Below are positions 1-29,122 of a stretch of DNA of 43,715 nt, one piece after another. Position 1 is the stretch's first letter, and each line of letters starts with the position of its first letter. This DNA is from an uncultured Gammaproteobacteria bacterium (GTDB lineage Bacteria > Patescibacteriota > Patescibacteriia > Buchananbacterales > GWA2-38-13). The stretch lies in NCBI GenBank assembly GCA_964373925.1, contig CAYJWS010000003.1, forward strand, positions 1-43,715, written 5' to 3'. The notes below the pieces were generated by a model. The model worked only from the letters and a program-made list of their open reading frames with translations. It searched no databases and had not been told where the DNA came from. A program made the position numbers and the translations under genes.

Positions 1-88
1 ACAAAAAAATAGAGTTGTTGAAAAAATTATAAACAGTTCATGCACATGTTATTAACAAAAAATAATAATTCCCTTATAATAATTCTCA

Positions 89-97
89 TGCTATAAT
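89..97 (+). promoter_or_regulatory. Candidate extended -10 element (TGcTATAAT) upstream of dnaA
   Basis: tgctataat at 89-97, about 60 nt upstream of the ATG at 160. No convincing -35 hexamer. Motif only. Confidence 0.3.
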
Positions 98-159
98 ACA
101 AGTTGTTTTTCTCCTAGTACTCCTTGTTTGCCCAAAAATTTAAAAATAAACAAATACAT

Positions 160-15718: not shown

Positions 15719-17344
15719 ATGAATAGCCAGAAATTTCACACAATACAAAAAATTTTAAAAAAAAATACTTTTTTGCCATATTTTATAATATTTGAAGTGG
15801 CGTTTATAGTCTTTTATTTCTTGCAAAACCAGCTGACATTTGCCGATCCCGACTCTTTCTATCACGTGAAAATGGCAATGCTCATGAAAGAACGCGGCAT
15901 CATTAGGGATTTCCCATGGCTTCAATTCACTATACTTAAAAATTATTATACCGACCATCATCTCCTCTATCATATCGCGCTTATTCCTTTTGTTTCCATC
16001 TTGCCGCCGCTTGTCGGAGTAAAGCTCGCGACGATTATTTTTTCAAGCCTGGCAATCACAGTATTTTATTGGCTACTAAGAAAGTTCGAAGTGCGCGGCG
16101 CGTGGTTTTATGCACTTGTTTTAATGGTGAGCGCTTCGTTTATCTTTCGAATTAATCTCGCGAAAGCCCAGTCGCTTGCGTTGATAGCTTTCTTGATAGG
16201 ATACTATCTCATAGAACAGAAAAAAATATACAGCCTTATAATTTTTTCTTGTATCTATGTGTGGCTGTATGGCGGGTGGCCGCTTATTTTCGTGGTTTTT
16301 GGAGTATATTTTTTTGCTGGGCTTGTATTTCAGTTCAAGTCACATAGAAAAAATTTAGCAAACAGGATTAAAGAATTTTTTTTTGGCACGCATTATTATC
16401 TTGATACGAAACGAATGTTTCAATGGGTGCGGTCGCAGCATAAAAGCCTTGCCGCGATATGTGTCGGGATTGTAGCCGGCCTTGTTATCAACCCTTATTT
16501 TCCCAAGAACTTATTTTTTTATTGGTATCAGATAGTCCATGTCGCGGTTATCAACTATAAGGGAAAAATCGGCGTTGGAGGAGAGTGGTATGGCTATAAT
16601 CCAATTGAGCTTATCTCAAGCTCAAGCCTCGCATTTATCGTGGCAATTGTGGCATGCACGTTTTTTGTTCTTGCCATTAAAAAGCAGACGATACGCTCAG
16701 TGAGCCTCATGTTTTTAACGGTGACTTTTTTTATTCTCACCATAAAATCGCGAAGAAACGTGGAGTATCTTATTCCTACCATGCTTCTCTTCTCGGGAGT
16801 TTCACTCACCATATTTGCCGATACCGTGAACATAAAAAATTTTTACAAGGAGCTCAAGAGTTTTTTCATGGAACAAAAAATACTTTTTATAGCAGCTCTT
16901 ATTCCCTTGTTTCTTATTCCCTATGTTATCGGACGCGATTATATGGTGGTGAGGGGTATTTATGGCGATGGGCAGAAATTCGACAAGTACAAGGGGGCGC
17001 TTGAGTGGCTTGAGGGAAATAGTCCGAAAAACTCCATTGTATTTCACAGTGACTGGGATGAGTTTCCAATACTTTTTTACCACAACACCCATAATTACTA
17101 CATTGTCGGCCTTGATCCAACCTTTATGTATGACTACGACCAGAATTTATACAGAAAATGGAAAGACGTTACTACGGGGCAGGAAAAGTCAAATATGTAT
17201 TCAATTATTAAAAACGATTTTCGGTCGGAGTTTGTTTTTGTATCGCTTGATAGGCATGAGAGCTTTGACAACAATCTAAAAGATAATTTTTTATTTGAGA
17301 AGGTGTTTCAGGATGGAAAATTAAAAATTTACAAGGTGCTCTAG
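15719..17344 (+). CDS. Polytopic membrane protein, GT-C-fold glycosyltransferase-like (STT3/AglB/ArnT-like)
   Basis: 541 aa with at least 11 hydrophobic segments followed by a soluble C-terminal domain. Acidic first-loop motif ADPDSFYHVKM resembles the D-x-D loop of GT-C enzymes. First gene of the operon. Confidence 0.55.
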   Translation: MNSQKFHTIQKILKKNTFLPYFIIFEVAFIVFYFLQNQLTFADPDSFYHVKMAMLMKERGIIRDFPWLQFTILKNYYTDHHLLYHIALIPFVSILPPLVGVKLATIIFSSLAITVFYWLLRKFEVRGAWFYALVLMVSASFIFRINLAKAQSLALIAFLIGYYLIEQKKIYSLIIFSCIYVWLYGGWPLIFVVFGVYFFAGLVFQFKSHRKNLANRIKEFFFGTHYYLDTKRMFQWVRSQHKSLAAICVGIVAGLVINPYFPKNLFFYWYQIVHVAVINYKGKIGVGGEWYGYNPIELISSSSLAFIVAIVACTFFVLAIKKQTIRSVSLMFLTVTFFILTIKSRRNVEYLIPTMLLFSGVSLTIFADTVNIKNFYKELKSFFMEQKILFIAALIPLFLIPYVIGRDYMVVRGIYGDGQKFDKYKGALEWLEGNSPKNSIVFHSDWDEFPILFYHNTHNYYIVGLDPTFMYDYDQNLYRKWKDVTTGQEKSNMYSIIKNDFRSEFVFVSLDRHESFDNNLKDNFLFEKVFQDGKLKIYKVL

Positions 17345-17352
17345 CCATTATT

Positions 17353-18078
17353 ATGAAAATACTCATCGTGCTTCCGGCATACAATGAAGAAAAGATAATC
17401 CGAAAAAATATTATTATACTATATTCGTACATGGAGAAGAATTTTCCCGCGTATGATTGGAACATTATCGTTTCAGACAATAATTCAAAAGATACAACCA
17501 AAGATATTGTTTTGGATACGGCCATATCCCATGCCCGTTTGAAATATTTTTTTGTTCCAGAAAAAGGAAAGGGTGTTGCTATTCGCAGGGCGTGGGAGGC
17601 TCATGACGCCGATATATATTGTTTTATGGACGCGGATCTATCAACAGATATTGAGGCATTGCCGCTTCTTATTGGCGCAATTGAAAAAGATGGTTACGAC
17701 GTCGCGTGCGGTTCGCGGACGCACAAAGATTCAAAAGTTGAGCGCTCTGGTGTCCGAAGGCTCGTTTCTTTTGGATATAGAATAATTTTGAAGCTTGCAT
17801 TTAGCCTTTCCGTTGGCGACGCGCCATGCGGATTTAAGGCAATAAACAACAATATAAAAAAATACATACTTCCGAAAGTTCAAAACAACGAATGGTTTTA
17901 TGACAGCGAACTCATAATTCTTTCGGAGAAATCCGGATACAAAATACAAGAGATCCCAGTTCACTGGAACGGCCAAGAAGAGGCGGGAAGGGTGAGTAAG
18001 GTAAATATTTTTTCTTTAAGTATTGAATATATTAAAAAAGTGTTTGAGCTGTATTTCAGGATCAAAAAGGGAGTTTAA
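17353..18078 (+). CDS. Glycosyltransferase family 2 (polyprenol-phosphate glycosyltransferase-like)
   Basis: KILIVLPAYNEE, SDNNSKD and MDADLS (DxD) motifs. 241 aa. Confidence 0.85.
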   Translation: MKILIVLPAYNEEKIIRKNIIILYSYMEKNFPAYDWNIIVSDNNSKDTTKDIVLDTAISHARLKYFFVPEKGKGVAIRRAWEAHDADIYCFMDADLSTDIEALPLLIGAIEKDGYDVACGSRTHKDSKVERSGVRRLVSFGYRIILKLAFSLSVGDAPCGFKAINNNIKKYILPKVQNNEWFYDSELIILSEKSGYKIQEIPVHWNGQEEAGRVSKVNIFSLSIEYIKKVFELYFRIKKGV

Positions 18079-18080
18079 AT

Positions 18081-18947
18081 ATGTTTTCAAGTCAACAAGA
18101 TTTTTTAAGTATCATTATCCCCGTATATAACGAGGAGAAAATAGCTCGCGAGTTTTTTGAAAAGCTAAAGCAAGAGATGCGAAAACGTGTTATCAATTAC
18201 GAAATAATCGCGGTGAATGATGGATCAGAAGACCATTCGCATGAAATACTTAAAAGCATTAAGGATATTTTAGTCATTCACAATCCTTATAATCTGGGCT
18301 ATGGAGCGTCTTTAAAAAAGGGTTTGAAAGCAGCTCATGGAAACTGGGTTTTAATAATGGATAGCGATGGCACCTATCCCGTAGAAAGAATTTCTGATTT
18401 ATTGGAGTACACCAATGTCTATGATATGGTTGTTGGAAACAGAAATCACAAAAAAGACGCTCTGGGCAGAAAGCCGGCAAAATGGATTTTAAAAAAACTC
18501 GCCAGCTTTCTCGTGGGGCGCGATATTCCCGACCTCAACTCCGGCATGCGCGTGTTTCGCAAAGACCTAGCTTTGGAGTTTTTCGATCTTTATCCATCGG
18601 GATTTTCTCTCACTACAACCATTACTATGGCATTTTTTGTGAATGATTATGCGGTTCGGTACGTCAGTATCCCATACTATAAGAGAGTGGGGGACTCTAG
18701 TATACGGCCTTGGCATTTTTTTGATTTTATGGCGCTTGTAATGAAGCTTATTTTATATTTTAAGCCGCTTAAAATGCTTTTTATTCCAATAATTTTTCTT
18801 TTTTCTTTGGGTGTTGCCAAGGCCATAAAAGACATTATAACCATACGTTCCATTGGCAACCTCGCGCTTATTCTCATTGTATTTTCTTTTCAGATTCTCA
18901 CCATGGCGCTTGTTTTAAAGATTATTACCAAAAAGAATCTACAATAA
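18081..18947 (+). CDS. Glycosyltransferase family 2 with C-terminal transmembrane helices (GtrB/DPM-like polyprenol-phosphate glycosyltransferase)
   Basis: LSIIIPVYNEE, VNDGSED and MDSDGTYP motifs, plus two C-terminal TM helices. Confidence 0.85.
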   Translation: MFSSQQDFLSIIIPVYNEEKIAREFFEKLKQEMRKRVINYEIIAVNDGSEDHSHEILKSIKDILVIHNPYNLGYGASLKKGLKAAHGNWVLIMDSDGTYPVERISDLLEYTNVYDMVVGNRNHKKDALGRKPAKWILKKLASFLVGRDIPDLNSGMRVFRKDLALEFFDLYPSGFSLTTTITMAFFVNDYAVRYVSIPYYKRVGDSSIRPWHFFDFMALVMKLILYFKPLKMLFIPIIFLFSLGVAKAIKDIITIRSIGNLALILIVFSFQILTMALVLKIITKKNLQ

Positions 18948-18953
18948 AATACT

Positions 18954-19718
18954 ATGGATAGGTCTGAACGCGAAATTGCGCTTCATAAGATTATTTATAA
19001 AGATTATATCGAGCGAAGGAAGAATCCTGTGTGTAGGCTTGTTGATCATTTTTGGTATAGAGAAATGATGCGTGAGATTGTAATTTATGCAAAAAAACAA
19101 AAAATAAAAATTATTGATCTCGGAGCGGGCACATGTTTATTTTTTGAAACGATTAAGGATAACCAAGATATTGATTATACGGGAGTTGATTCAAGCCAAG
19201 AGATGCTCAATTATGCCAGCTCTATTTATGGATCATTTCCCAACTTTCATTCTTTTGTAAAAAATTTAGATGGTGACTTTGCAATGCGCGAACAATACGA
19301 CGTTTATGTCATGAGAAGCCTGGTGCACCACTTGGAACATAAAGATGAGTTTTTAAAAATGCTTATTTCCAGCATTCCTTCGGGAGCGCTTCTTGTTATC
19401 TCTGAACCCAATAAAAATTTTGCAACCCACGCGCTTCGGGAGCTTTTGAAAAAAATGAAAAAAGGGCATTTTGACCAGGATCATTATGACTTAAGCACTC
19501 AATACTTTTTAGAGCATTTTAAGAGAGATGATATATCTCTTTTAGGAATGAAATACTTTGGATATTTTTCTTACCCGTTTAGTTTCCCCTACATTCTTAA
19601 GCTCCCGATTCCCGCGTGGTGCATACGCCTGTTTATCCCCATAGACAGGATTTTGTCAAAATTGCCAATTATCAGGCGCTTGTCGTGGCATGTTATTTAT
19701 ATAGTACAAAAAAAATAA
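18954..19718 (+). CDS. Class I SAM-dependent methyltransferase
   Basis: Motif I IIDLGAGTC. Acidic post-I residue (GVDSSQEM). 254 aa. Confidence 0.78.
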   Translation: MDRSEREIALHKIIYKDYIERRKNPVCRLVDHFWYREMMREIVIYAKKQKIKIIDLGAGTCLFFETIKDNQDIDYTGVDSSQEMLNYASSIYGSFPNFHSFVKNLDGDFAMREQYDVYVMRSLVHHLEHKDEFLKMLISSIPSGALLVISEPNKNFATHALRELLKKMKKGHFDQDHYDLSTQYFLEHFKRDDISLLGMKYFGYFSYPFSFPYILKLPIPAWCIRLFIPIDRILSKLPIIRRLSWHVIYIVQKK

Positions 19719-19719
19719 A

Positions 19720-22020
19720 ATGAATATCGCAAAGAAAATATTAAACGGTTCGATAGTTGAGTGGGTATTTCTCTTGTGGTTTATCTTCGTGTATTTTTCA
19801 TATATATATTTTCACGGAGCATTTTTTGAATTTATGGCCTTGTTTTTTGTGGGACTTATTTTGTTTGGATACGGATATTTCATGTTGAGTCGCTATAATT
19901 TTTCTCAATATATGGCGCGCTTGAAATGGCCGTTGTGGCGTTTTGCCGTTGTCATATACGCAGGAATAATTTTTTTGTCTCTCATTTTTTATTTAAGCAC
20001 CCACGCAGTTGGAAGCGGTTCCATTTTTCTCTATTGGTGGATATTTCTTTCAAAGATAGCGGTTCATATAACGGCAAGAATCGTTTTCTTGATCCTACTG
20101 TTAATTGTAAGCGCAGGTCTTGGAAAAAAGATGAGTAAAAAATTTATAGAATTTTCAAGTAATATCTTTGAAGATCTTATTTTTTGTTTTGGAATTGGCT
20201 TTATGGCAATCAACTATTTTGCATTTTTGGCGGTTGCACTTCATTTGCAATATCAAATATTATTGGCGGCATTAACGCTTGCTATAATAGTATATGTGCG
20301 CGATGATATTTTCTATTTTATAAAAAAAATTATTAATTTAGAAATATCATTCGAATTTCGATTATCAAAAAATATTGAGCATCTTAAAACGTATGCCATC
20401 ATTTTCACCATACTTTTTTTTATTTTTGCTTTTTTGGGGACGCTACTCGTCGTTCCCATAGATTACGATGATTTGGATATTTATTATAGCGTGCCACTTC
20501 TTTACAATCATTACAACGCTGTTATACCTTTTAATAATTCATTGGCAATGCTTGGCGGTTTCGTAATGTTTTTTTACGCATATATCAACACCTTGGTCGC
20601 GCCAGTGTTTGTATTATCAATTTCTTTCTTCTTTTTACTCTTGGTTTTATTATCATTATATGTTTTTGTAAGAAAAATATTTTCACAATCGCTTGCTTTC
20701 GCTACATTATTTTTAGCGGCCTCACTCCCCATGGGTGTACATTTTATCATGACGCAAAAAGTTGACTTTATATTAGCCTTTTACTCCATACTTTGTATAT
20801 TTGCTTTATTTTTATGGTTTTCTGGGCGCAATAAACAATATCTTATACTATCATCTCTGTTTTTAGGATTTGCTGTGTCCGTAAAGCTCACTGGTCTTTT
20901 TTTATTTTTGACGGTGTGTTTTTTTATGCTTGCCCTTGTTTTAGCGCGAAAGCAAAAATTAAAAGATGTTGTTATCTTCGCCATTGTCGCAATTATGATG
21001 TTTTCTCCCACTGCATTAATGAACTTTTATTATTATCTAAATCCTATCGCACCTTTAACTTTTGCTGGTTTGCCACGTACTCGATCTGAAACGGTTTTTA
21101 ACCAAGGACGGAGAGTGCATCTTTATGAAATTTTCAATACGTCTTTCGCAAAAGAACGCCTACGCGAATATACGCACCTCACGCGACAAAATCATCTGTA
21201 CGATTCAAGTATTAAAAATTTTTTTTGGAGGATATGGAATACCACAATAAACCAGCGTGGCTTTTCTTTTACGTATTCCGAAGTAACTCCGTATTTTCTT
21301 TCATTTTTGCCGCTTTTAGCCTTTTATTTTTTCCAGAAAAAACTTTATAGGAAAAAAAATATTTTATACCTTGCTATTATTTCTTTTGCGTATCTTGCGG
21401 TGTGGTTTACATTTGGAAACGAAAGGTCGTGGTATGGCATACCCGGAGTGTATCTGTTGTTTATTCTCTGCGCGATGGCTTTTGCAAACATCAAAAACAG
21501 AAAAGCACTGATTGCCTCTTTATTTTTAGCCGTTCTTTTTTTCGTGCGGACATTTTCTTTTTTTATTTGGATTATTTTACAAGATCATAATATTATGAAA
21601 TCTCCCCAAGAGATTTCATATGAAAAAATTATTGACACCACCGATCTTCCATTTTACAATTTTTTAAATCAAAAAATCATTCCCTATAATGTAGGAAAAA
21701 GAATCCTCATGATTAACGAGTCAAGAAATGCACTGATTTATGAGGCTGATAAAAATATTATATCAGATCAGTTTAATGTTTTTTGGGGAAAGATTTTAGA
21801 CGAATCACGTACGTTAGAAGAAGTGAAAGAAATTTTATTGCAACAAGACGTGTCGCATATTGTGTATTCTATTCGCGGAGAGAATTACGTCGCTTCGTTC
21901 GCAGGAAGAGAGAAAGAAAAGTATCGCCTTTTGCGCGACATGGATGTGTTTCATGAGTTTAGAGAAAAATTTTTAACCGAAGTGCGCTGCGAAGACGAGT
22001 TTTGCATATATAAAATATAA
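19720..22020 (+). CDS. Large polytopic membrane protein, GT-C-like (ArnT/PMT-like) with a C-terminal soluble domain
   Basis: 766 aa with more than 15 hydrophobic segments and a roughly 170-aa hydrophilic C-terminus. Start is 1 nt after the preceding stop. Confidence 0.55.
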   Translation: MNIAKKILNGSIVEWVFLLWFIFVYFSYIYFHGAFFEFMALFFVGLILFGYGYFMLSRYNFSQYMARLKWPLWRFAVVIYAGIIFLSLIFYLSTHAVGSGSIFLYWWIFLSKIAVHITARIVFLILLLIVSAGLGKKMSKKFIEFSSNIFEDLIFCFGIGFMAINYFAFLAVALHLQYQILLAALTLAIIVYVRDDIFYFIKKIINLEISFEFRLSKNIEHLKTYAIIFTILFFIFAFLGTLLVVPIDYDDLDIYYSVPLLYNHYNAVIPFNNSLAMLGGFVMFFYAYINTLVAPVFVLSISFFFLLLVLLSLYVFVRKIFSQSLAFATLFLAASLPMGVHFIMTQKVDFILAFYSILCIFALFLWFSGRNKQYLILSSLFLGFAVSVKLTGLFLFLTVCFFMLALVLARKQKLKDVVIFAIVAIMMFSPTALMNFYYYLNPIAPLTFAGLPRTRSETVFNQGRRVHLYEIFNTSFAKERLREYTHLTRQNHLYDSSIKNFFWRIWNTTINQRGFSFTYSEVTPYFLSFLPLLAFYFFQKKLYRKKNILYLAIISFAYLAVWFTFGNERSWYGIPGVYLLFILCAMAFANIKNRKALIASLFLAVLFFVRTFSFFIWIILQDHNIMKSPQEISYEKIIDTTDLPFYNFLNQKIIPYNVGKRILMINESRNALIYEADKNIISDQFNVFWGKILDESRTLEEVKEILLQQDVSHIVYSIRGENYVASFAGREKEKYRLLRDMDVFHEFREKFLTEVRCEDEFCIYKI

Positions 22021-22052
22021 GGTATAATACCATTTACCATTTTATTGTCATT

Positions 22053-22778
22053 ATGAAAATATCAGATTTTAGAACTTTTTTGCGTTTAATGAAAAAAAGA
22101 AACGCGAGTGAAGAGGACTATTTTGCCTTTCAAAATTTTCAGGCGGAACGAACACTTGAAGATATGGCGCGGCACAATGTATTTATGAATGGAAAAAAAA
22201 CGCTAGACCTCGGTTGCGGACAGGGCGGATATACCGAAGTTTTTTATAAACACGGCGCGCGCATCACAGCAACTGATTTTCATGAGCCGGCGCTTCTTCG
22301 TAAGCGACAGCCTGAAATACCTTGGTTTTTTTCTAACCTTAATGCGGGCATCGAAACACAGGGCACTTTTCAATTTATTTATTGCTGCTCGGTAATAGAG
22401 CATATAAAAAACCAAAATAAGCTTATTTCAGAAATATATCGGGTATTAGATAAAAATGGCGAGCTTATTTTGAGTTTTCCGCCTTTTTACGCACCCCTTA
22501 ATGGGGGACACGTGTACAGTCCGTTTCATTATTTGCCAGAGAAGTACGCAGTAAAAATAGCCAGTTTTATTCGAAGAGAAAATTATTCTTCTTACGAAAC
22601 AACCTGGGGAGATTGGGGTCTTTACAAAACCACTATTGGGTCGGTCAAAAATATGCTACAACAGAATAGATTTTCTAACATTACAACTTGGACAAAATAT
22701 TTACCAATCAATTTTTCACGAATTCCGTTAATGAATGAATGTTGTACATGGCACGTTGTTTTTTATTGCAAGAAATAA
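22053..22778 (+). CDS. Class I SAM-dependent methyltransferase
   Basis: Motif I LDLGCGQGGY, then ATDF, then VIEHI. 241 aa. Confidence 0.75.
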   Translation: MKISDFRTFLRLMKKRNASEEDYFAFQNFQAERTLEDMARHNVFMNGKKTLDLGCGQGGYTEVFYKHGARITATDFHEPALLRKRQPEIPWFFSNLNAGIETQGTFQFIYCCSVIEHIKNQNKLISEIYRVLDKNGELILSFPPFYAPLNGGHVYSPFHYLPEKYAVKIASFIRRENYSSYETTWGDWGLYKTTIGSVKNMLQQNRFSNITTWTKYLPINFSRIPLMNECCTWHVVFYCKK

Positions 22779-22781
22779 TTC

Positions 22782-23483
22782 ATGAAAATATATATCATCA
22801 TTCCAACGTATAACGAAAAGAATAACATTGAAAAGCTTCTGCGCCTAATTTTTAGTCTCGGCATAAAAAATCTTTGGGTGCTTGTAGTTGATGACAATTC
22901 TCCAGATGGCACAGGTGAGGCGGTTGAAGCGCTAAAAAAAGAGTTTCCTTTTCTCGATATTATTCATAGGGAAAAAAAGCTCGGGCTTGGCACCGCATAT
23001 GTCGCGGGCTTTACAAGAGTACTGCGTGAAGGGGCGGATCTTATCTTTGAAATGGACGCTGACTTCTCGCACGATCCAAACTATATACCAAAAATTCTTG
23101 AGGCCACAAACGAATGCGATCTTGTTTTAGGATCAAGATATACGCCGGGCGGGGGAGTAAAGAATTGGAATTTTTTTCGAAGACTCATCAGCCGTTTTGG
23201 AAACTTGTATGCGCAGATTATTTTAAGCGTTCCTATAAAGGATCTCACCGGAGGGTTTAAATGTTATACAAGAAAGATTTTGGAAACCATAGAATTGGAG
23301 AGTTTAAGTTCTATAGGATATAATTTTCAGATAGAAACAACATATAAGGCCTACAAGCGAGGATTTCGTATAAAGGAAATTCCAATCATATTTACCGAGA
23401 GAGCGCAAGGAAAATCAAAATTTAACATAGCCATAATTCTTGAAAGTTTTTGGAAAGTTATAGTATTGCGCCTATTTTCTTAA
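22782..23483 (+). CDS. Polyprenol-monophosphate mannose synthase-like GT2 (Dpm1/Ppm1-like)
   Basis: IIIPTYNEKNNI, VVDDNSPDGTG, EMDADFSHDP, GSRY and the C-terminal RAQGKSK motif typical of Dpm1-type enzymes. Confidence 0.86.
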   Translation: MKIYIIIPTYNEKNNIEKLLRLIFSLGIKNLWVLVVDDNSPDGTGEAVEALKKEFPFLDIIHREKKLGLGTAYVAGFTRVLREGADLIFEMDADFSHDPNYIPKILEATNECDLVLGSRYTPGGGVKNWNFFRRLISRFGNLYAQIILSVPIKDLTGGFKCYTRKILETIELESLSSIGYNFQIETTYKAYKRGFRIKEIPIIFTERAQGKSKFNIAIILESFWKVIVLRLFS

Positions 23484-23485
23484 AT

Positions 23486-25126
23486 ATGCTTAAACACATA
23501 TCTCAAAGAGAGTGGAAATTTTTTGGTGTTTTCTCGGCGATTCTTACGGCAATTTTGGCATTGCCGTTTTTGTATGCTTATTTTTCCACGCCACCAAATT
23601 TGTATTTTTCGGGACTCCATATGCTCGCGCCGGGAGATTATTCAGTCTATTTTTCCTATATAACGCAAGCGCAGAACGGGCATTTTCTTTTTCGCGATCT
23701 TTTTACAACAGAATCAACTTCTTATAATATAATAAATACGTTTTGGGTTTTCGCGGGAATTGTTGGAAATTTTTTTTCTTTGAGTCCGCAGTGGGCGTTT
23801 CAAGCCGCGCGCCTCATCTCCATACCTTTTTTGGTGTTTACTCTTTATATTTTTTTTAGCTATTTTTATCAAAGCGAAAAACATAGAAAATTCATTTTGA
23901 TATTTGCATGTTTCGCGTCCGGGCTTGGAGTTTATTTTTTGCCATTTTTTCCCATGGTACGCCAGATACAGACGGATCGAGTGATGCTCCCTCCCGATAT
24001 TTGGGTTTCGGAGTCAAATATATTTTTGAGCATGCTTCATTCCGGCCATATGGTCTTTTCTTTGGCGCTCACGGTAATAATATTTTTTTTAAGCATTCTT
24101 TTCGCGGAAAAAAAGAATTATTTGTTGAGCGCGTGTTCTGGAGTTGTTGCTTTAGCGCTTTTTAGTTTTCATCCGTTTCAGGCGCCGGTAATATTCGGAG
24201 TGCAGATATTTTTCGCATTGTATGAGAGCATAAAAAATAAAAAAATAGAAATTTCGTACATTACGCACATATTTTTAACCTTCCTTATCTCGTCGCCAAT
24301 GATTGCGTATTATATTTTTATGTTACAGTTTGATCCCATTACCCAAGAGAGGGCTGTCCAAAACATTAATCTTAGTCCACCGCTTTATAGCATGTTTATG
24401 GGCTTTGGGTTTCTTGGGGTGTTTGCATTAGCTGGAACTATTTTTTGTAATAAAACGCCAATGAGGGACAAGAGAAGAGATTTTTTAGTAGTATGGATTG
24501 TGGTCCAGCTTATGCTTATGTACGCTCCTCTTAATTATCAAAGAAGGCTTATAGAAGGGTTTTCCGTCCCTTTGATAATTTTGAGTTTTGATTTTATTAT
24601 TTTTGTGTATGACAAACTTAAGATCATAATTCGTTCAAATACATGGCGTTTTTTATTGCTTAATACATTAAACGCCATAATTATTTTTATTCTGATATTC
24701 TTACCTTCAAATATTTTTGTTTATAGCGCGGATTTTTTGCGATATATTAAAAAAGATTCCTACATATATTTTCCAAAAAAAGACATTGAGCCATTGTTGT
24801 GGCTCTCACATAAAAACAATGAAGGGGCGGTGCTCGCAGAGATTAATACAAGCCATTTTATCCCCGCTATAGCGGGAAAGCAAGTATTTGCGGGCCACAT
24901 GATAGAGACCGTTCATTTTTCAGAGAAACTTAAAGAGGTAAATGATTTTTTTCGCGATAATTCAAATGATAATGAAAAGATAGAATTTTTGAAAAAAAAT
25001 AATATCCGGTATGTGTACTACGGTCCGAAGGAAAAAGCACTTGGCAATTTTAAACCGGAAGAAAAAATATATTTAAAAAAAATTTTTATCAATACGGCCG
25101 TAATAATTTATGAATTTTCCCAATAA
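23486..25126 (+). CDS. Polytopic membrane protein, GT-C-like, translationally coupled to the Dpm1-like GT2
   Basis: 546 aa from the ATG at 23486, 2 nt after the preceding stop. Loop motif APGDYSVYFSYITQAQNG. Multiple TM segments and a C-terminal soluble domain. Confidence 0.55.
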   Translation: MLKHISQREWKFFGVFSAILTAILALPFLYAYFSTPPNLYFSGLHMLAPGDYSVYFSYITQAQNGHFLFRDLFTTESTSYNIINTFWVFAGIVGNFFSLSPQWAFQAARLISIPFLVFTLYIFFSYFYQSEKHRKFILIFACFASGLGVYFLPFFPMVRQIQTDRVMLPPDIWVSESNIFLSMLHSGHMVFSLALTVIIFFLSILFAEKKNYLLSACSGVVALALFSFHPFQAPVIFGVQIFFALYESIKNKKIEISYITHIFLTFLISSPMIAYYIFMLQFDPITQERAVQNINLSPPLYSMFMGFGFLGVFALAGTIFCNKTPMRDKRRDFLVVWIVVQLMLMYAPLNYQRRLIEGFSVPLIILSFDFIIFVYDKLKIIIRSNTWRFLLLNTLNAIIIFILIFLPSNIFVYSADFLRYIKKDSYIYFPKKDIEPLLWLSHKNNEGAVLAEINTSHFIPAIAGKQVFAGHMIETVHFSEKLKEVNDFFRDNSNDNEKIEFLKKNNIRYVYYGPKEKALGNFKPEEKIYLKKIFINTAVIIYEFSQ

Positions 25127-25144
25127 TAACAATTTTATTAAAAT

Positions 25145-26956
25145 ATGACCGCTGGAAATTTTTTCTACAATTTTTTTGGAACCATAATTTTTCTATTTCT
25201 TTTTTTGATTATGATATATGTCGTTGCCATCATTCAAAAAAAGAATTTAGTAAGTTTTATGAAAGGATTTTTTCTTCATAAATCTTCAGGGGTAAATCTG
25301 GCAGTTTTTCGGATAGCTGTTTTTTTTAGTATTTTATTTCTCGTTCCAAAAAAGGCGACATGGATGACTCTTTTGCCGAATGATTTTTTTCGTCCGCCGC
25401 CGGGTACGTCTTGGTTCGCGCAGTTTTTACCGCTAGATAGCGGTACTATTTCTGTGGCAACATTTTTATTTATACTATTTTCGGTGATGGCTATGGTTGG
25501 ATTTTTTTCAAGAACCTCGGCGTTCTTTGCTTTTTTATTGGGATTATATGTTTTAGGACTGCCACAGTTTTATGGCAAGGTAAGCCATGACACACATCAT
25601 CTCATTTGGTTTTCAGCGCTTTTAGCTGTTTCTCCATGCGGTGATATGTTTTCTCTTGATGCTGTTATTCGCGCTTGGAGGCGCCCAGAGGGGTATCGAG
25701 CCACCTTATCTTCATTATCTATCAAGCATGGAGCGCCAATCCGTTTTGCGTGGGCGCTTTTTGGGATTATCTATTTTTTTCCCGGACTATGGAAGTTAAC
25801 AACATATCAGACATGGATTTTTGGAGAAAGCGTCCGTCAGCATACTTATTTGGCGTGGATTTTTCAGGATATTGCACGGCCATTTTTTCGCTTTGATTAT
25901 TATCCAATACTCTATAGATCGATTGGCGCGGCTACTATACTCTTTGAATTAATTTTTTTATTTTTTATTTTTTTTAAGCCAACTCGTATTTTTATGGCGA
26001 TTTTTGGAATATTTTTTCATCTCTCTATTTATGTATTTATGGGTATTAATTTTTTACCACTTATCGCATGTTATGTGATATTTTTTGATTGGGAAAAAAT
26101 TTTTAAGAATATTGGAAAATTTATATTTAAAAATAAAGTATATTTTTTATATGATGGTAAGTGTCGAGTATGCAGAAAAACAATTGCCATAATACTTTCG
26201 CTTGACGTGCTACAGCAAATAGTTCCGATTGATCTTTATGATCAAGAATCTCAAAAGCACCATCACTTGCCCTTCATTGATCGAAACATTCTTTTAGAAG
26301 AGTTGCATTGTATTTTGAAAGAAAAAAGATTTAAAGGGTTCTACGCATATCAGGTCTTGGCGTTTCGCATTCCTTTTTTTTGGTGCATCCTTCCATTATT
26401 ACATGTCTCGTACGTGGAGAAGGCGGGAAAGGCGATATATAATCGAGTTGCAAAAAATCGAACATGCGAAATTGGGCTAGTTGATGCGGGAGTTATAAAT
26501 ATATCGCCAACACGCGATTATTTTCCAATGCAAATTTTTATTGTTTTTTTAATATTATTTATACCCAATATTTATGCCGGAGTAGGCGATATCAATTCTT
26601 GGCCATATTCTGTATACCCGACATTTCATGTATCTGACGATGACTTTCGGGAGGATGTTATGAATATCCGCGTATTTGATAATGATGGGAAAGAAATTGC
26701 CATAGATCTTAAGCCGATGAAACAAAAACTTGGTTTTGTAGACGTTCGATGGCTTGAGCGAGATCTTATTTTTATTCGCGATAAAGACGCACAGCAATAT
26801 TATATCAAAAAATATCTTGAAGTACTTAATACATTTAACGTGGTGCCGAAAGATGTTAAAATCATAGAATTTAGCCATGATCTTATTTGGATTGATCCAG
26901 ATAAAAAATCATTGAATCCAGTGAATAGGGATACTCTACTTAAGGTTTCTTTATAA
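25145..26956 (+). CDS. HTTM-domain (vitamin-K-carboxylase-like membrane domain) protein fused to a DCC-family thiol-disulfide oxidoreductase domain and a C-terminal soluble domain
   Basis: HTTM-like NLAVFRIAVFFSILFL, GFFSRTSAFFAF and LAVSPCGDMFSLDAV. DCC/DUF393 motif FLYDGKCRVCRKT (DGxCxxC). 603 aa. Confidence 0.65.
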   Translation: MTAGNFFYNFFGTIIFLFLFLIMIYVVAIIQKKNLVSFMKGFFLHKSSGVNLAVFRIAVFFSILFLVPKKATWMTLLPNDFFRPPPGTSWFAQFLPLDSGTISVATFLFILFSVMAMVGFFSRTSAFFAFLLGLYVLGLPQFYGKVSHDTHHLIWFSALLAVSPCGDMFSLDAVIRAWRRPEGYRATLSSLSIKHGAPIRFAWALFGIIYFFPGLWKLTTYQTWIFGESVRQHTYLAWIFQDIARPFFRFDYYPILYRSIGAATILFELIFLFFIFFKPTRIFMAIFGIFFHLSIYVFMGINFLPLIACYVIFFDWEKIFKNIGKFIFKNKVYFLYDGKCRVCRKTIAIILSLDVLQQIVPIDLYDQESQKHHHLPFIDRNILLEELHCILKEKRFKGFYAYQVLAFRIPFFWCILPLLHVSYVEKAGKAIYNRVAKNRTCEIGLVDAGVINISPTRDYFPMQIFIVFLILFIPNIYAGVGDINSWPYSVYPTFHVSDDDFREDVMNIRVFDNDGKEIAIDLKPMKQKLGFVDVRWLERDLIFIRDKDAQQYYIKKYLEVLNTFNVVPKDVKIIEFSHDLIWIDPDKKSLNPVNRDTLLKVSL

Positions 26957-27085
26957 TTACCTTGAATTACGAAACTCATATCTTATTAGTCCCTGAGCCC
27001 AGTCGAAGGGCTGCCTTGAGCCAAACAGTTATCCAACGACTAGCTCAGGAAATAATTTTTTTGCAGTTTCGTAATTCAAGGTAAT
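26956..27085. repeat. Palindromic element with perfect 21-bp terminal inverted repeats filling a convergent intergenic gap (copy B)
   Basis: attaccttgaattacgaaact at 26956-26976 is the exact reverse complement of agtttcgtaattcaaggtaat at 27065-27085. Inner inverted repeat tccctgagc...gctcagga. The termini touch both flanking stop codons. Confidence 0.85.
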
Positions 27086-29058
27086 TAAATAGATTTTATA
27101 AATATTGGCCGTGAGAGTATTGACTCATGTGTAATAGAGTTTTTTATTGAAAGATCTGAATCAAGATATACTCCGCCTTCGTCTATTGTAATAACCTCAA
27201 GATACATATCCAATTTTAAAGGCGTGTATTTTTCGGGAATATGCGGCCAATAATTTGTCTGAATAGTTGTATTCTCCTGCCAATCGCTTGTTGGATACAC
27301 GCCAGAACCCAATGGATATATTTTTTCATATATTCTTTCTTTTTCTTCATTTGTGAAAAAGATTTTAATAAAATAGTTGTAATAAATATCTTGTTTTGTT
27401 TTCCAGTATAACTGTATCGGAACCATTTGATTTTTTATCTCGCCAATATTAAATCCCAAAAAATTTAAATCATCACCAATATCCGTGAACCGCTCGGCAT
27501 CAATATTTTTTGGAGAATTTTCTATAATTTCGTAAAGCTTGATTTGTGTGTTTTCATTTTTTGAAAAAAGCACAATATCATCCAAAACGTCGGTGGCAAC
27601 AAAGCCATCCTGTTCTATTCTTTGGCGCACCCTTGAACTGCCGGATGCGAAGGTATTTTTATACAGGGGGCTGTCTCTATATTGTATTTCATAGGTTACG
27701 AAATCCGAGAGATTCATAAGAAGGTATTCGGTGTCAGAAGGAAGTATATATTCTTTTTTTCCAAATTGCTCGGTTCCAATGAAAAAGTAGTTAAAACCGT
27801 ACACGCGCTCTCTTCCGGAAACCGAAGAAAGCATATCGTAGGATACCGCCACCGCTGCATCGACGGGAATTTTTTTTATAAGCAATGTCTTATAAGAATT
27901 CATTTTTTTGTCCATTCCAAAAATATCTTTTTGAACAGTTCCAATTACAGGGCCCAGTGTGAGCGAGCTGTATACAACGGCGACAATAAGAATAATTTGC
28001 CCTAAACGTTCTTTGAAAAATATTTTTATAAGCGGATTTTTCGGCTGCATTGTTTGAAGCGCCTTAAGTGAGGCGATAAAAGCTAAAAACAGAGAAGGCA
28101 AAAATAGGGCGGAGTATTGGGTCTTCAAGACAAGTCCGCTAGGTCCCGCGGAGCCTAAAAGAATCTGCGCGTATGGCAGGAGCGATAATAACAAATATCG
28201 GGGTCGTATCAAAGATATGAATGCAAAAGGCAAAAGAAGTCCCAAGACCATTTCAATGTTCCCTATGCTCAAAAGCCGAATAATAATTATCCATGGATGA
28301 AAAAAAAAGAATTTTATGGCCTCAAGCCAATTGTCTCCAAGCCATGAGTAGTATATAAAAAATTTATACCCTTCGTTTCCGTTAAAAAAGCTTATTATCT
28401 TTATTGAAAAGAAAAAATAGAGTACGGCAAGTATTGTTGGCGCGAAAATCCATATTTTCTTTTTTTTCTCAAGCAACGCGAGCGCGCCAAACATAAAAAC
28501 TATAAGCGATATGTCTTCGCGGATAACAAGCGCGAGAGAGGCAAAAAGAATAAATGCCCACAATCTATTTTTTTCAAAATAATAAAAAGCAAAAAAGAGA
28601 AAGACCAGCGCGAACGGCAAAAACGAAAATTCAAACAGCATGAGGCTATGAACCATGGGGTTGAAGAGCCACGCGCACGATATGCAAAGAGAAATATTTT
28701 GAGAAAAACGATTTTTTACAATGAGATATATCGGCCAGACAGGAAGAGTAACGGCGATAATTTGTAGTACGAGAAGTGTTAGAGCGCTTTTTTTAATAAG
28801 ATAGAGCGGAAGAAGGATAAAGAGAATGGGGCTGAAATGATCTTTTAGATATGTCGGGGGATGAATGGTTGATTGAAAAAAGTTTCCAACGCTTGAGTTG
28901 TAAAAAACCTGATGAATAATGGCGAGGTCTAAGCCATTGTATTGAAAGTTATTGAACTTCGCTATCGCGAGAAAGCTAAAAAAAGCGGCAAAGACCGCTT
29001 GTATGGCAAAGAGAATTATGAGGGGGGTTGTTTTTGGATTTGATGGCAGGTGAAGCAT
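27085..29058 (-). CDS. DUF2079-like polytopic membrane protein (putative GT-C-like)
   Basis: NGLDLAIIHQVFYNS...LKDHFSPILFILLP matches the remembered DUF2079 N-terminal signature. Many TM segments and a roughly 270-aa soluble C-terminus. The first ATG is at 29058; the track start at 29073 is a TTG. Confidence 0.65.
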   Translation of the reverse strand: MLHLPSNPKTTPLIILFAIQAVFAAFFSFLAIAKFNNFQYNGLDLAIIHQVFYNSSVGNFFQSTIHPPTYLKDHFSPILFILLPLYLIKKSALTLLVLQIIAVTLPVWPIYLIVKNRFSQNISLCISCAWLFNPMVHSLMLFEFSFLPFALVFLFFAFYYFEKNRLWAFILFASLALVIREDISLIVFMFGALALLEKKKKIWIFAPTILAVLYFFFSIKIISFFNGNEGYKFFIYYSWLGDNWLEAIKFFFFHPWIIIIRLLSIGNIEMVLGLLLPFAFISLIRPRYLLLSLLPYAQILLGSAGPSGLVLKTQYSALFLPSLFLAFIASLKALQTMQPKNPLIKIFFKERLGQIILIVAVVYSSLTLGPVIGTVQKDIFGMDKKMNSYKTLLIKKIPVDAAVAVSYDMLSSVSGRERVYGFNYFFIGTEQFGKKEYILPSDTEYLLMNLSDFVTYEIQYRDSPLYKNTFASGSSRVRQRIEQDGFVATDVLDDIVLFSKNENTQIKLYEIIENSPKNIDAERFTDIGDDLNFLGFNIGEIKNQMVPIQLYWKTKQDIYYNYFIKIFFTNEEKERIYEKIYPLGSGVYPTSDWQENTTIQTNYWPHIPEKYTPLKLDMYLEVITIDEGGVYLDSDLSIKNSITHESILSRPIFIKSI

Positions 29059-29122
29059 ATGGCATGCAGGCAAAATAAAAACCAGTCTTTATGATGGTTT
29101 TATATTTCTTTTTATGTTTATA

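What the first reader, a model, noticed from the sequence alone, without database searches (positions are those of the whole stretch)
25145..26956. HTTM (vitamin-K-carboxylase-like) membrane domain fused to a DCC thiol-disulfide oxidoreductase as the last gene of the glycosylation operon
The 603-aa protein has four parts in order:
- An N-terminal multi-pass domain with HTTM-like motifs (NLAVFRIAVFF, GFFSRTSAFFAF, LAVSPCGDMFSLDAV).
- A DGxCxxC motif (LYDGKCRVCRKT) typical of DCC/DUF393 thiol-disulfide oxidoreductases.
- One further TM helix.
- A soluble tail of about 140 aa.

The HTTM domain is the membrane core of the eukaryotic vitamin-K-dependent gamma-carboxylase. Its bacterial homologues have no established function. 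A covalent link to a CxxC redox module suggests an envelope redox or modification step, placed in an operon otherwise devoted to glycan transfer. The organism type is generally thought to lack quinone biosynthesis, which makes the cofactor question interesting.
Basis: partly seen in the sequence, partly recalled or inferred. Interest (0 to 1): 0.6.

Follow-up and report, generated by a model that had tools for sequence, protein, structure and literature searches.

The report
Carboxylase-like membrane enzyme in glycan operon
The gene encodes a bacterial look-alike of the human vitamin-K-dependent carboxylase with a thiol-redox module on its cytoplasmic side; it sits at the end of a surface-sugar operon in a tiny bacterium that cannot make any quinone, so what it modifies and which cofactor it uses are open but testable.

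Summary
ORF 25145-26956 (+) is one intact 603-aa gene, with HTTM (PF05090) and DCC1-like (PF04134) hits both above Pfam's cut-offs.

- **Fold:** the predicted structure (pLDDT 87) matches only human vitamin-K carboxylase (GGCX), at Z 22.8.
- **Active site:** K217, H148, W224, F291-H292 and F303 align with GGCX K218, H160, W223, F286-H287 and F299. They are kept in 240-244 of 245 relatives.
- **Layout:** the DCC domain (DxxCxxC present) is inserted in a loop that is cytoplasmic by inference. A last membrane helix and a 122-aa outer domain with no match to any solved structure follow.
- **Family:** at least 616 clusters across many phyla. About 17% of nearest neighbour genes are glycosyltransferases, so the glycan-operon setting is typical of the family.
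- **This genome:** the gene was not found in 60 related genomes and sits on a long branch among other phyla. The genome (96.5% complete) has no UbiA, MqnA, MenD, VKOR or cytochrome bd.

My reading is a quinol- and oxygen-driven modification of a surface glycoconjugate on the outer face, with the DCC domain recycling the cofactor. That part is inferred, not shown. This scan has flagged the same architecture in more than 100 other genomes. It is a new member of a known, uncharacterised family.

The parts
25145..26956 (+). Whole gene: 603-aa HTTM / DCC1-like / TM / ectodomain protein (P0001)
   Evidence: Intact ORF. Both Pfam domains score above their cut-offs. The colinear architecture is seen in more than 100 homologues.
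25148..25234 (+). N-terminal extra TM helix (aa 2-30), followed by a K-rich loop that is cytoplasmic by inference (aa 31-48)
   Evidence: Model helix 2-30. Loop 31-48 has 4 K+R and 0 D+E.
25247..26134 (+). GGCX-like (HTTM) transmembrane core, aa 35-330
   Evidence: VIA-align Z 22.8, rmsd 3.6 A, 307 residues aligned to human GGCX 9l6q_A. Foldseek finds only GGCX chains at E<=1e-3. A family profile hits the GGCX sequence at E=1.5e-4.
25586..25588 (+). H148 codon, aligned with GGCX His160 (which binds the substrate carboxylate)
   Evidence: Profile alignment. H in 240 of 245 relatives. Role of H160 from PMC12647623.
25793..25795 (+). K217 codon, aligned with GGCX Lys218 (general base that deprotonates vitamin K hydroquinone)
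   Evidence: Profile alignment GlwK / GVKK. K in 244 of 245 relatives. Codon AAG.
25814..25816 (+). W224 codon, aligned with GGCX Trp223 (which stacks on the catalytic lysine)
   Evidence: W in 241 of 245 relatives.
25946..25948 (+). E268 codon, a near-invariant acidic residue one column from GGCX Asp263
   Evidence: E in 243 of 245 relatives. The profile alignment places D263 on the neighbouring column F267, so the equivalence is inferred.
26015..26053 (+). F291-H292 ... F303, aligned with GGCX Phe286-His287 (floor of the naphthoquinone pocket) and Phe299 (CO2 pocket)
   Evidence: F291 in 243, H292 in 241 and F303 in 241 of 245 relatives. Roles from PMC12647623.
26138..26464 (+). DCC1-like thioredoxin-fold domain (aa 332-440), inserted relative to GGCX and predicted to be cytoplasmic
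   Evidence: PF04134, 45-50 bits. It is skipped in the structural alignment to GGCX (model 35..536 against chain 34..436). Weak thioredoxin-fold matches at Z 4.4-4.7. Loop 314-461 has 22 K+R against 15 D+E.
26153..26173 (+). DxxCxxC motif (D337, C340, C343)
   Evidence: Read directly from the sequence. C340 is kept in 140 and C343 in 138 of about 207 relatives aligned at those columns.
26528..26587 (+). Last TM helix (aa 462-481), superposed on the last TM helix of GGCX
   Evidence: Model helix 462-481, pLDDT above 90. Structural alignments run through it to GGCX residues about 403-436.
26588..26953 (+). Extracytoplasmic C-terminal domain (aa 482-603). It starts with the conserved W-P-x-x-x-Y-P-T-F loop; the remaining alpha/beta domain has no match to a solved structure.
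   Evidence: W486, P487, P492 and F494 are kept in 197-201 of the 201 relatives aligned at those columns. The domain model has pLDDT 90.4. The best structural match is Z 3.6 and Foldseek gives nothing at E<=0.001. No Pfam hit.
15719..25126 (+). Upstream co-directional glycan operon: unassigned 541-aa membrane protein, two GT2, methyltransferase, PMT_2-type GT-C (766 aa), methyltransferase, GT2, unassigned 558-aa membrane protein
   Evidence: Pfam. The three GT2 proteins resemble polyprenyl-phosphate-sugar synthases in NCBIfam, all below the cut-offs. The ORFs are tightly spaced.
27085..29073 (-). Convergent DUF2079 membrane protein gene
   Evidence: PF09852, E=1.9e-53.

Best explanation
Shown:
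- It keeps the residues aligned with the GGCX active site: K217, H148, W224, F291-H292, F303, and E268 next to the Asp263 column.
- A DCC-type thioredoxin-fold domain with an intact DxxCxxC is inserted before the last TM helix.
- A family-specific 122-aa domain follows that helix.
- The protein belongs to a widespread, uncharacterised family that recurs inside surface-polysaccharide gene clusters of many phyla.
- In this small-genome bacterium the gene has no counterpart in 60 related genomes.

Inferred from the GGCX topology and the charge bias:
- The active site and the C-terminal domain face outward. This is the side where the operon's GT-C-type transferases use polyprenyl-phosphate sugars.
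- The DCC domain faces the cytoplasm.

Proposed mechanism (inferred, not shown):
- The enzyme binds a prenylated naphthoquinol in the outer leaflet.
- K217 deprotonates the quinol and O2 converts it into a strong base.
- That base removes a proton next to a carboxylate of a glycan or glycoconjugate made by the operon. Carboxylation or a related change follows.
- The cytoplasmic CxxC, fed by thioredoxin, re-reduces the spent quinone or epoxide and so stands in for the missing VKOR.
- Because the genome encodes no quinone synthesis, the cofactor would have to be scavenged, for example with host lipids.
For: - **Domains:** both Pfam domains score above their cut-offs.
- **Model:** AF2 pLDDT 87.3, pTM 0.88.
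- **Fold:** GGCX is the only significant match. Foldseek gives 15 chains at E<=1e-3, all GGCX. VIA gives Z 22.8, rmsd 3.6 A over 307 residues, and the next unrelated hit is Z 5.8.
- **Active site:** a profile-to-sequence alignment with human GGCX at E=1.5e-4 pairs K217/K218, H148/H160, W224/W223, F291-H292/F286-H287 and F303/F299. These residues are kept in 240-244 of 245 relatives. Their roles in GGCX are described in PMC12647623.
- **Topology:** the structural alignment skips aa 332-440, so the DCC domain is an insertion. The flanking loops are K/R-rich and the C-terminal domain is acidic.
- **Family size:** 616 representative clusters at E<=1e-30.
- **Glycan context:** 4 of 11 sampled homologues lie inside polysaccharide clusters and a fifth lies directly beside one. 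Among 131 nearest neighbours at 34 taxonomically spread loci, GT1/GT4 (13) and GT2 (9) are the commonest families. Glycosyltransferases are usually put at about 1-2% of bacterial genes (general knowledge).
- **Outer-face chemistry:** the operon's GT2 proteins look like polyprenyl-P-sugar synthases, and it carries PMT_2 and DUF2079 membrane transferases that act on the outer face.
- **Redox supply:** the genome has thioredoxin, has no VKOR, and has a UDP-glucose/GDP-mannose dehydrogenase family gene that could supply uronic acids.
Against: - No UbiA-family prenyltransferase, MqnA, MenD or cytochrome bd was found in a 96.5%-complete genome. The proposed cofactor is therefore not made by the cell, and scavenging is an assumption.
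- Organisms of this kind are mostly thought to be fermentative, and O2 use is unproven.
- About a third of the DCC-bearing relatives lack the CxxC yet keep the HTTM site. Cofactor recycling by the DCC domain cannot be a general requirement.
- No substrate was identified. The glycan link is guilt by association and holds for about half of the sampled loci only (searches show other contexts).
- N159 of GGCX is Ser here.
- The Asp263 equivalence is off by one column.
Confidence: 0.45

Rival explanations
1. Protein carboxylase. The enzyme acts, like GGCX and MloH, on Glu/Asp residues of a secreted or surface protein or peptide (for example a glycoprotein that the operon's PMT_2-type transferase mannosylates, or the pilin-like proteins encoded 2 kb downstream). 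It would create calcium-binding residues. The glycan operon would then be only the place where surface-protein modification genes are collected.
For: - All characterised members of the superfamily act on peptide-bound Glu or Asp (PMC12647623; bioRxiv 10.64898/2026.08.19.745780).
- H148, which aligns with the Glu-carboxylate ligand H160, is near-invariant.
- PMT_2 family enzymes modify proteins.
- Earlier scan notes on other genomes report family members next to acidic peptide or poly-Asp protein genes. Those notes are unchecked leads.
Against: - The propeptide-binding part of GGCX is missing. The protein ends after a 122-aa domain with no structural match, and structural alignments reach only GGCX residue about 490.
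- No candidate acidic substrate gene is adjacent in the window.
- The neighbours of relatives are dominated by glycosyltransferases, not by small secreted proteins.
Confidence: 0.2
2. Quinone-independent use of the fold. [quoted passage not shown] K217, E268 and H148 would then act as ordinary acid-base residues for a transfer, epimerisation or trimming step. The DCC domain would be regulatory or structural.
For: - No quinone-biosynthesis marker was found in this genome.
- Five of nine HTTM-carrying genomes of the phylum have no UbiA-family gene at all.
- The operon is built around polyprenyl-phosphate sugar chemistry.
- The CxxC is dispensable in a third of the relatives.
- In GGCX the isoprenyl tail lies in a long hydrophobic tunnel (PMC12647623), a site that could take another polyprenyl lipid.
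Against: - The residues that sandwich and hydrogen-bond the naphthoquinone ring and form the CO2 pocket in GGCX are as conserved as the base itself. That is hard to explain without a similar ring-shaped cofactor.
- Most carriers of the family (Nostoc, Acidobacteriota, Planctomycetota) belong, by general knowledge, to aerobic groups that make quinones.
- The window's protein keeps its CxxC.
Confidence: 0.2
3. Recently acquired passenger gene with no role in this host. A horizontally transferred copy sits at the operon's end and is decaying or idle because its cofactor is missing.
For: - The gene was not found in 60 related genomes.
- It sits on a long branch (1.65) among other phyla, separated by a 98% SH-aLRT branch from the DCC-less Peregrinibacteria proteins, which is how NCBI labels those rows.
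- Its best identity to any relative is only 38-39%.
- The genome makes no quinone.
Against: - The ORF is intact over 603 codons and keeps every near-invariant family residue, the CxxC included.
- It is packed 18 nt behind the preceding gene of a tight operon.
- Its G+C (0.349) is like that of its operon neighbours (0.334-0.387) and only about 1.4 sd below the genome mean.
- Small genomes rarely keep a 1.8-kb idle gene (general knowledge).
Confidence: 0.07

Closest known systems
[quoted passage not shown]
   Same: - The transmembrane fold matches (Z 22.8, 307 residues at 3.6 A).
- The residues aligned with the general base Lys218, Trp223, His160, Phe286-His287 and Phe299 are kept.
- The last TM helix is followed by a conserved loop at the outer face.
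   Different: - Sequence identity is only 15-16%.
- A 110-aa DCC thioredoxin-fold domain is inserted on the cytoplasmic side.
- The large lumenal propeptide clamp (jelly-roll part) and the C-terminal domain of GGCX are missing, replaced by a 122-aa domain with no structural match.
- There is an extra N-terminal TM helix.
- Asn159 is Ser here.
- The host makes no quinone.
HTTM + DCC1-like protein with its adjacent DUF5819 partner (Melghirimyces thermohalophilus pair; bioRxiv 10.64898/2026.08.19.745780)
   Same: The order is the same: HTTM, then DCC1-like, then a single TM helix carrying a small outer domain. The preprint models that TM helix and domain onto the corresponding parts of GGCX.
   Different: - There the TM-plus-domain part is a separate neighbouring gene. 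Here it is fused in one chain.
- The window's C-terminal domain gives no Pfam hit of any kind at E<=0.01.
- The window's protein is part of a glycan operon.
MloH, the vitamin-K-dependent aspartyl carboxylase of malonomycin biosynthesis in Streptomyces (Law et al. 2018, as cited in PMC12647623 and in the preprint above)
   Same: It is a bacterial HTTM enzyme with a fused outer domain, and the only bacterial relative with a demonstrated carboxylation according to the papers read here.
   Different: - It acts on a polyketide-peptide intermediate in a natural-product cluster.
- No inserted DCC domain is reported for it.
DCC family (PF04134, DUF393; B. subtilis YuxK, Arabidopsis DCC1)
   Same: The DxxCxxC motif is present and the Pfam match is above the cut-off. 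The predicted fold is thioredoxin-like.
   Different: Here the domain does not stand alone. It is inserted in a membrane enzyme. Its redox partner is unknown, and a third of the fused relatives have lost the cysteines.
Bacterial VKOR-thioredoxin fusions (my own knowledge, not examined here)
   Same: The logic is the same: a quinone-handling membrane enzyme is covalently joined to a thioredoxin-fold CxxC domain that passes electrons.
   Different: - VKOR is an unrelated four-helix fold, and its Trx partner lies outside the cytoplasm.
- Here the CxxC domain is predicted to be inside.
- No VKOR is present in the genome.

Membership tests
HTTM / GGCX superfamily (PF05090) | Profile match above Pfam's gathering score | tested here: met
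   33.9 bits against a cut-off of 27.7, aa 51-314. 36.1 bits in the genome search.
HTTM / GGCX superfamily (PF05090) | GGCX-type multi-pass transmembrane fold | tested here: met
   Z 22.8, rmsd 3.6 A, 307 residues aligned to 9l6q_A. All 16 top hits are GGCX and the next hit is Z 5.8. Foldseek probability is 1.00.
HTTM / GGCX superfamily (PF05090) | Catalytic lysine (human Lys218) with its stacking tryptophan (Trp223) | tested here: met
   K217 and W224 align with K218 and W223. They are kept in 244 and 241 of 245 relatives.
HTTM / GGCX superfamily (PF05090) | Substrate-carboxylate and CO2-pocket residues (His160, Asn159, Phe299) and the quinone-ring floor (Phe286) | tested here: met
   H148, F303 and F291 are aligned and near-invariant. 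Asn159 is Ser147 here; among relatives it is N in 127, D in 63 and S in 24.
HTTM / GGCX superfamily (PF05090) | Acidic partner of the lysine (human Asp263) | tested here: inconclusive
   The near-invariant E268 lies one column from the position aligned with D263.
Vitamin-K-dependent carboxylase in the strict sense (GGCX orthologue) | Lumenal propeptide-binding clamps and C-terminal domain | tested here: not met
   The protein ends 122 aa after the last TM helix. Structural alignments reach only GGCX residue about 490 of 758. The C-terminal domain alone matches no solved structure.
Vitamin-K-dependent carboxylase in the strict sense (GGCX orthologue) | Quinol- and O2-dependent epoxidation coupled to carboxylation | not testable with these tools
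   This needs an enzyme assay.
Vitamin-K-dependent carboxylase in the strict sense (GGCX orthologue) | A naphthoquinone supply and a VKOR-type recycling enzyme in the same cell | tested here: not met
   No UbiA/MenA, MqnA, MenD, VKOR or cytochrome bd in a 96.5%-complete genome. Uptake from outside is not excluded.
DCC family thiol-disulfide oxidoreductases (PF04134) | Profile match above the gathering score | tested here: met
   45.1 bits and 50 bits against a cut-off of 27.8.
DCC family thiol-disulfide oxidoreductases (PF04134) | DxxCxxC motif | tested here: met
   D337-G-K-C340-R-V-C343.
DCC family thiol-disulfide oxidoreductases (PF04134) | Thioredoxin-like fold | tested here: inconclusive
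   Only weak matches of aa 326-454 to thioredoxin-fold proteins: GST N-terminal domain Z 4.7, PDILT b' domain Z 4.4, Grx5 by Foldseek at E 0.95. The domain was not folded on its own.
DUF5819 (outer partner domain of split HTTM-DCC proteins) | Sequence match of the C-terminal TM-plus-domain part | tested here: inconclusive
   No Pfam family, DUF5819 included, was hit at E<=0.01 by the C-terminal parts of seven family members. A positional analogy remains. No DUF5819 sequence was at hand for a profile or structure comparison.

The most novel reading that the evidence does not exclude
A bacterium that cannot make quinones keeps a complete vitamin-K-type active site together with its own built-in thiol reductase. 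It would run a self-contained 'vitamin K cycle' on a quinone scavenged from its host or surroundings, and use the strong base so formed to carboxylate or epimerise a sugar acid of a surface glycoconjugate. No such reaction has been described for any glycan, and it would be the first case of cofactor piracy for envelope chemistry in ultra-small bacteria.
Probability: 0.2. Interest if true: 0.85.

Novelty: new member of a known kind. Interest (0 to 1): 0.5.

Why it matters
Bacterial relatives of the blood-clotting carboxylase are numerous. This sub-family alone has at least 616 clusters at 50% identity. Apart from MloH, none has a known substrate in the papers found here.

- **Conserved chemistry:** the data show that the sub-family keeps the whole GGCX catalytic constellation.
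- **Redox domain:** a thioredoxin-fold domain sits on the side that is cytoplasmic by inference.
- **Glycan link:** the family is strongly linked to surface-polysaccharide clusters across phyla.

The copy in this window adds a sharp test case. Its host has no quinone pathway, no VKOR and no respiratory oxidase. Either the cofactor is taken up from outside, or the fold works without a quinone, and each answer would be informative. Cultured carriers such as Nostoc strains appear among the closest relatives, so knock-out and glycan-chemistry experiments may be feasible.

Tried and rejected
- **Frameshift or assembly fusion of two genes:** rejected. The frame is open with no stops, and more than 100 homologues are colinear over 93-99% of the length.
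- **Sequence-only links to solved structures:** the whole-family profile and the single HTTM segment found no GGCX. Only a profile that included the DCC-less relatives reached it.
- **NCBIfam:** no model matches the protein, nor the unassigned or GT-C-like neighbours.
- **C-terminal domain:** no Pfam family at E<=0.01 for seven members. The model of the domain alone gave a best Z of 3.6 in pdb_via_wide and nothing at E<=0.001 by Foldseek. A match to GGCX's lumenal clamp A could be neither shown nor excluded.
- **Close relatives:** the protein was not found in 60 genomes of the same family, order and class. Other HTTM proteins of the phylum are only 21-27% identical.
- **G+C as a sign of transfer:** not decisive. 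The gene is at 0.349, the genome mean is 0.399 with sd 0.037, and the operon neighbours are similarly low.
- **Lead from earlier scan notes that relatives travel with genes for one unusual amino sugar:** not seen in this operon. DegT-type aminotransferases were only 2 of 131 neighbours in my sample. The lead may hold for another sub-family.
- **Literature:** searches for HTTM, DCC, DUF393 or YuxK function returned almost nothing relevant. My recollection that the 2004 DCC paper by Ginalski et al. already noted the HTTM-DCC fusion could not be checked.
- **Model geometry:** The distance from the CxxC to the membrane and the K217-E268 geometry could not be measured.
- **Promoter and terminator scan:** nothing above the shuffled background that would separate the gene from the operon.
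Full report
**1. The observation**

The ORF at 25145..26956 (+) is open from ATG to TAA and encodes 603 aa. Pfam gives DCC1-like (PF04134, aa 335-440, 45.1 bits against a cut-off of 27.8) and HTTM (PF05090, aa 51-314, 33.9 bits against a cut-off of 27.7). A six-frame search of the whole genome finds the same two hits in one stop-free frame, and no second copy of either domain. More than 100 database proteins match 93-99% of the length in the same domain order, so this is not two genes joined by an error. The gene starts 18 nt after the preceding gene. It is the last of nine co-directional genes (15719-26956): three GT2, two methyltransferases, a PMT_2-type GT-C and two unassigned multi-pass proteins. 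A convergent DUF2079 gene follows.

**2. Anatomy**

An AlphaFold2 model built on 37 homologues is confident (pLDDT 87.3, pTM 0.88).

- **Fold.** Foldseek finds only human GGCX at E<=1e-3, 15 chains in all. VIA-align gives Z 22.8, rmsd 3.6 A and 307 aligned residues (model 35..536 against GGCX 34..436), while the best unrelated hit is Z 5.8.
- **DCC insertion.** The structural alignment jumps over aa 332-440, so the DCC domain is an insertion between the HTTM core and the last TM helix (aa 462-481). That helix superposes on the last TM helix of GGCX.
- **Topology (inferred).** In GGCX the region before TM1 is cytoplasmic and the domain after the last helix is lumenal (older topology work, from my own knowledge; the structure paper PMC12647623 describes the active site at the lumenal membrane interface). 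The charge bias here agrees. Loop 31-48 has 4 K+R and 0 D+E. The DCC-containing loop has 22 K+R against 15 D+E. The C-terminal domain has 18 K+R against 22 D+E. I therefore place the CxxC in the cytoplasm, and the active site and C-terminal domain outside.
- **C-terminal domain.** Modelled alone it has pLDDT 90.4. It has no Pfam match and no significant match to a solved structure (best Z 3.6; no Foldseek hit at E<=0.001).

**3. Active site**

A profile made from the HTTM part plus DCC-less relatives reaches the human GGCX sequence at E=1.5e-4. The pairings are:

| Window protein | Human GGCX |
|---|---|
| K217 | Lys218 |
| W224 | Trp223 |
| H148 | His160 |
| S147 | Asn159 |
| F291-H292 | Phe286-His287 |
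| F303 | Phe299 |

The near-invariant E268 sits one column from Asp263. According to PMC12647623, these GGCX residues are the general base for quinol deprotonation, its stacking partner, the ligands of the substrate carboxylate, the floor of the naphthoquinone pocket and the CO2 pocket. In an HMM alignment of 245 relatives they are kept in 240-244 sequences. By contrast, both cysteines of the DxxCxxC are kept in only about 138-140 of the roughly 207 sequences aligned at those columns. The window's protein has both.

**4. Family and distribution**

A full scan of 1.84 billion representatives finds 2378 relatives at E<=1e-3 and 616 at E<=1e-30. The closest is 38-39% identical. In species-representative genomes the family occurs in Cyanobacteriota (several Nostoc), Acidobacteriota, Chloroflexota, Planctomycetota, Omnitrophota, Dadabacteria, Deinococcota, Bacteroidota and others. 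A DCC-less form occurs in Peribacteria.

- None of 60 genomes of the same family, order or class has the protein.
- HTTM of any kind occurs in 11 of 401 sampled genomes of the phylum, this genome included. Those copies are only 21-27% identical to this one.
- In a maximum-likelihood tree the protein sits on a long branch (1.65) inside a mixed-phylum group. A branch with 98% SH-aLRT support separates that group from the group holding the Peribacteria proteins.

This fits horizontal acquisition followed by fast divergence. The long branch makes the exact donor unknowable. G+C is not decisive.

**5. Context elsewhere**

Of 11 homologues with enough flanking DNA:

- Four lie inside polysaccharide clusters, with Wzy, Wzt ABC exporter, GT1/GT2/GT4, AsnB-type amidotransferases, UDP-glucose dehydrogenase and epimerases.
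- A fifth lies directly beside such a cluster, and a sixth has weaker signs.
- Five lie elsewhere.

In a wider sample of 131 nearest neighbours at 34 loci from many phyla, GT1/GT4 (13) and GT2 (9) are the commonest families, about 17% of neighbours. The usual figure for glycosyltransferases is about 1-2% of bacterial genes (general knowledge; no matched control was run). The window's operon setting is therefore characteristic of the family. The three GT2 proteins of the window resemble polyprenyl-phosphate-sugar synthases, all below the NCBIfam cut-offs. Together with the PMT_2 and DUF2079 proteins this points to glycosyl transfer on the outer face, the same side as the predicted HTTM active site.

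**6. Cofactor question**

The genome is 96.5% complete. It has no UbiA-family prenyltransferase (the family that includes MenA and UbiA), and no MqnA, MenD, VKOR or cytochrome bd, while the control genomes responded as expected. Five of nine HTTM-carrying genomes of the phylum, this one included, have no UbiA-family gene. Thioredoxin is present.

**7. Interpretation**

Solid points:

- This is a GGCX-fold enzyme with a conserved GGCX-like active site.
- It carries an inserted DCC domain and a family-specific outer domain.
- It belongs to a large uncharacterised family that is linked to glycan clusters.

Most likely, but unproven (about 0.45):

- The chemistry is quinol- and O2-driven generation of a strong base.
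- The base acts on a carboxylate-bearing glycoconjugate outside the membrane.
- The cytoplasmic CxxC recycles the cofactor.
- In this host the quinone is scavenged.

Rivals:

- A protein substrate, as for GGCX and MloH (0.2).
- A quinone-independent use of the lipid tunnel for polyprenyl-linked sugars (0.2).
- An idle acquired gene (0.07).

**8. Comparison with what is known**

The split form of this architecture (HTTM-DCC plus a neighbouring TM-DUF5819 protein) was modelled and compared with GGCX and MloH in a 2026 preprint. NCBI and JGI already label relatives as 'DCC1-like thiol-disulfide oxidoreductase family protein' or 'YuxK'. This scan has flagged the same architecture in at least 107 other genomes. 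Earlier follow-ups reached the same structural reading and the same glycan link. I re-derived both independently here, but did not find the amino-sugar link they mention. The find is a new member of a known, uncharacterised family. Its particular value is the quinone-less host.

Noticed in passing
window 26956-27085: The 130-nt gap between the convergent HTTM-DCC and DUF2079 genes is bounded by a perfect 21-nt inverted repeat (26956-26976 and the reverse complement of 27065-27085). The repeat touches both stop codons. It could be a small mobile element or a two-way terminator.
   Followed up: partly
window 17353-18947 and 22782-23483: All three GT2 proteins of the operon score best against polyprenyl- or dolichyl-phosphate sugar synthases (AglJ, ArnC, PpgS, DPhHxTase), all far below the family cut-offs. 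This suggests several lipid-linked sugar donors for the GT-C-type proteins next to them.
   Followed up: partly
window 15719-17341 and 23450-25123: Two large multi-pass membrane proteins (541 and 558 aa) in the operon match no Pfam or NCBIfam model.
   Followed up: partly
genomes G062, G343, G349, G421 (loci L004-L007): Other genomes of the same phylum carry divergent HTTM proteins, some with a DCC part, yet show no UbiA-family gene. HTTM enzymes without quinone synthesis therefore recur in this phylum.
   Followed up: partly
loci L015, L016 and the contig of P0013: AsnB-type (glutamine-hydrolysing) amidotransferase genes lie at or near the family member in three unrelated polysaccharide clusters. 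In L015 the two genes overlap by 4 nt.
   Followed up: no
34 loci L026-L099 (neighbour survey, alignment A4): After glycosyltransferases, the next recurrent neighbours are pyridine-nucleotide-disulphide or FAD oxidoreductases (Pyr_redox_2 in 4, DAO/FAD in 4 of 131). These are possible electron donors for a quinone or thiol cycle.
   Followed up: no
relatives P0063, P0068, P0070, P0077, P0079, P0084, P0086, P0112, P0115: These full-length relatives keep the DCC-like domain but have lost one or both cysteines of the CxxC, while all HTTM active-site residues stay.
   Followed up: partly
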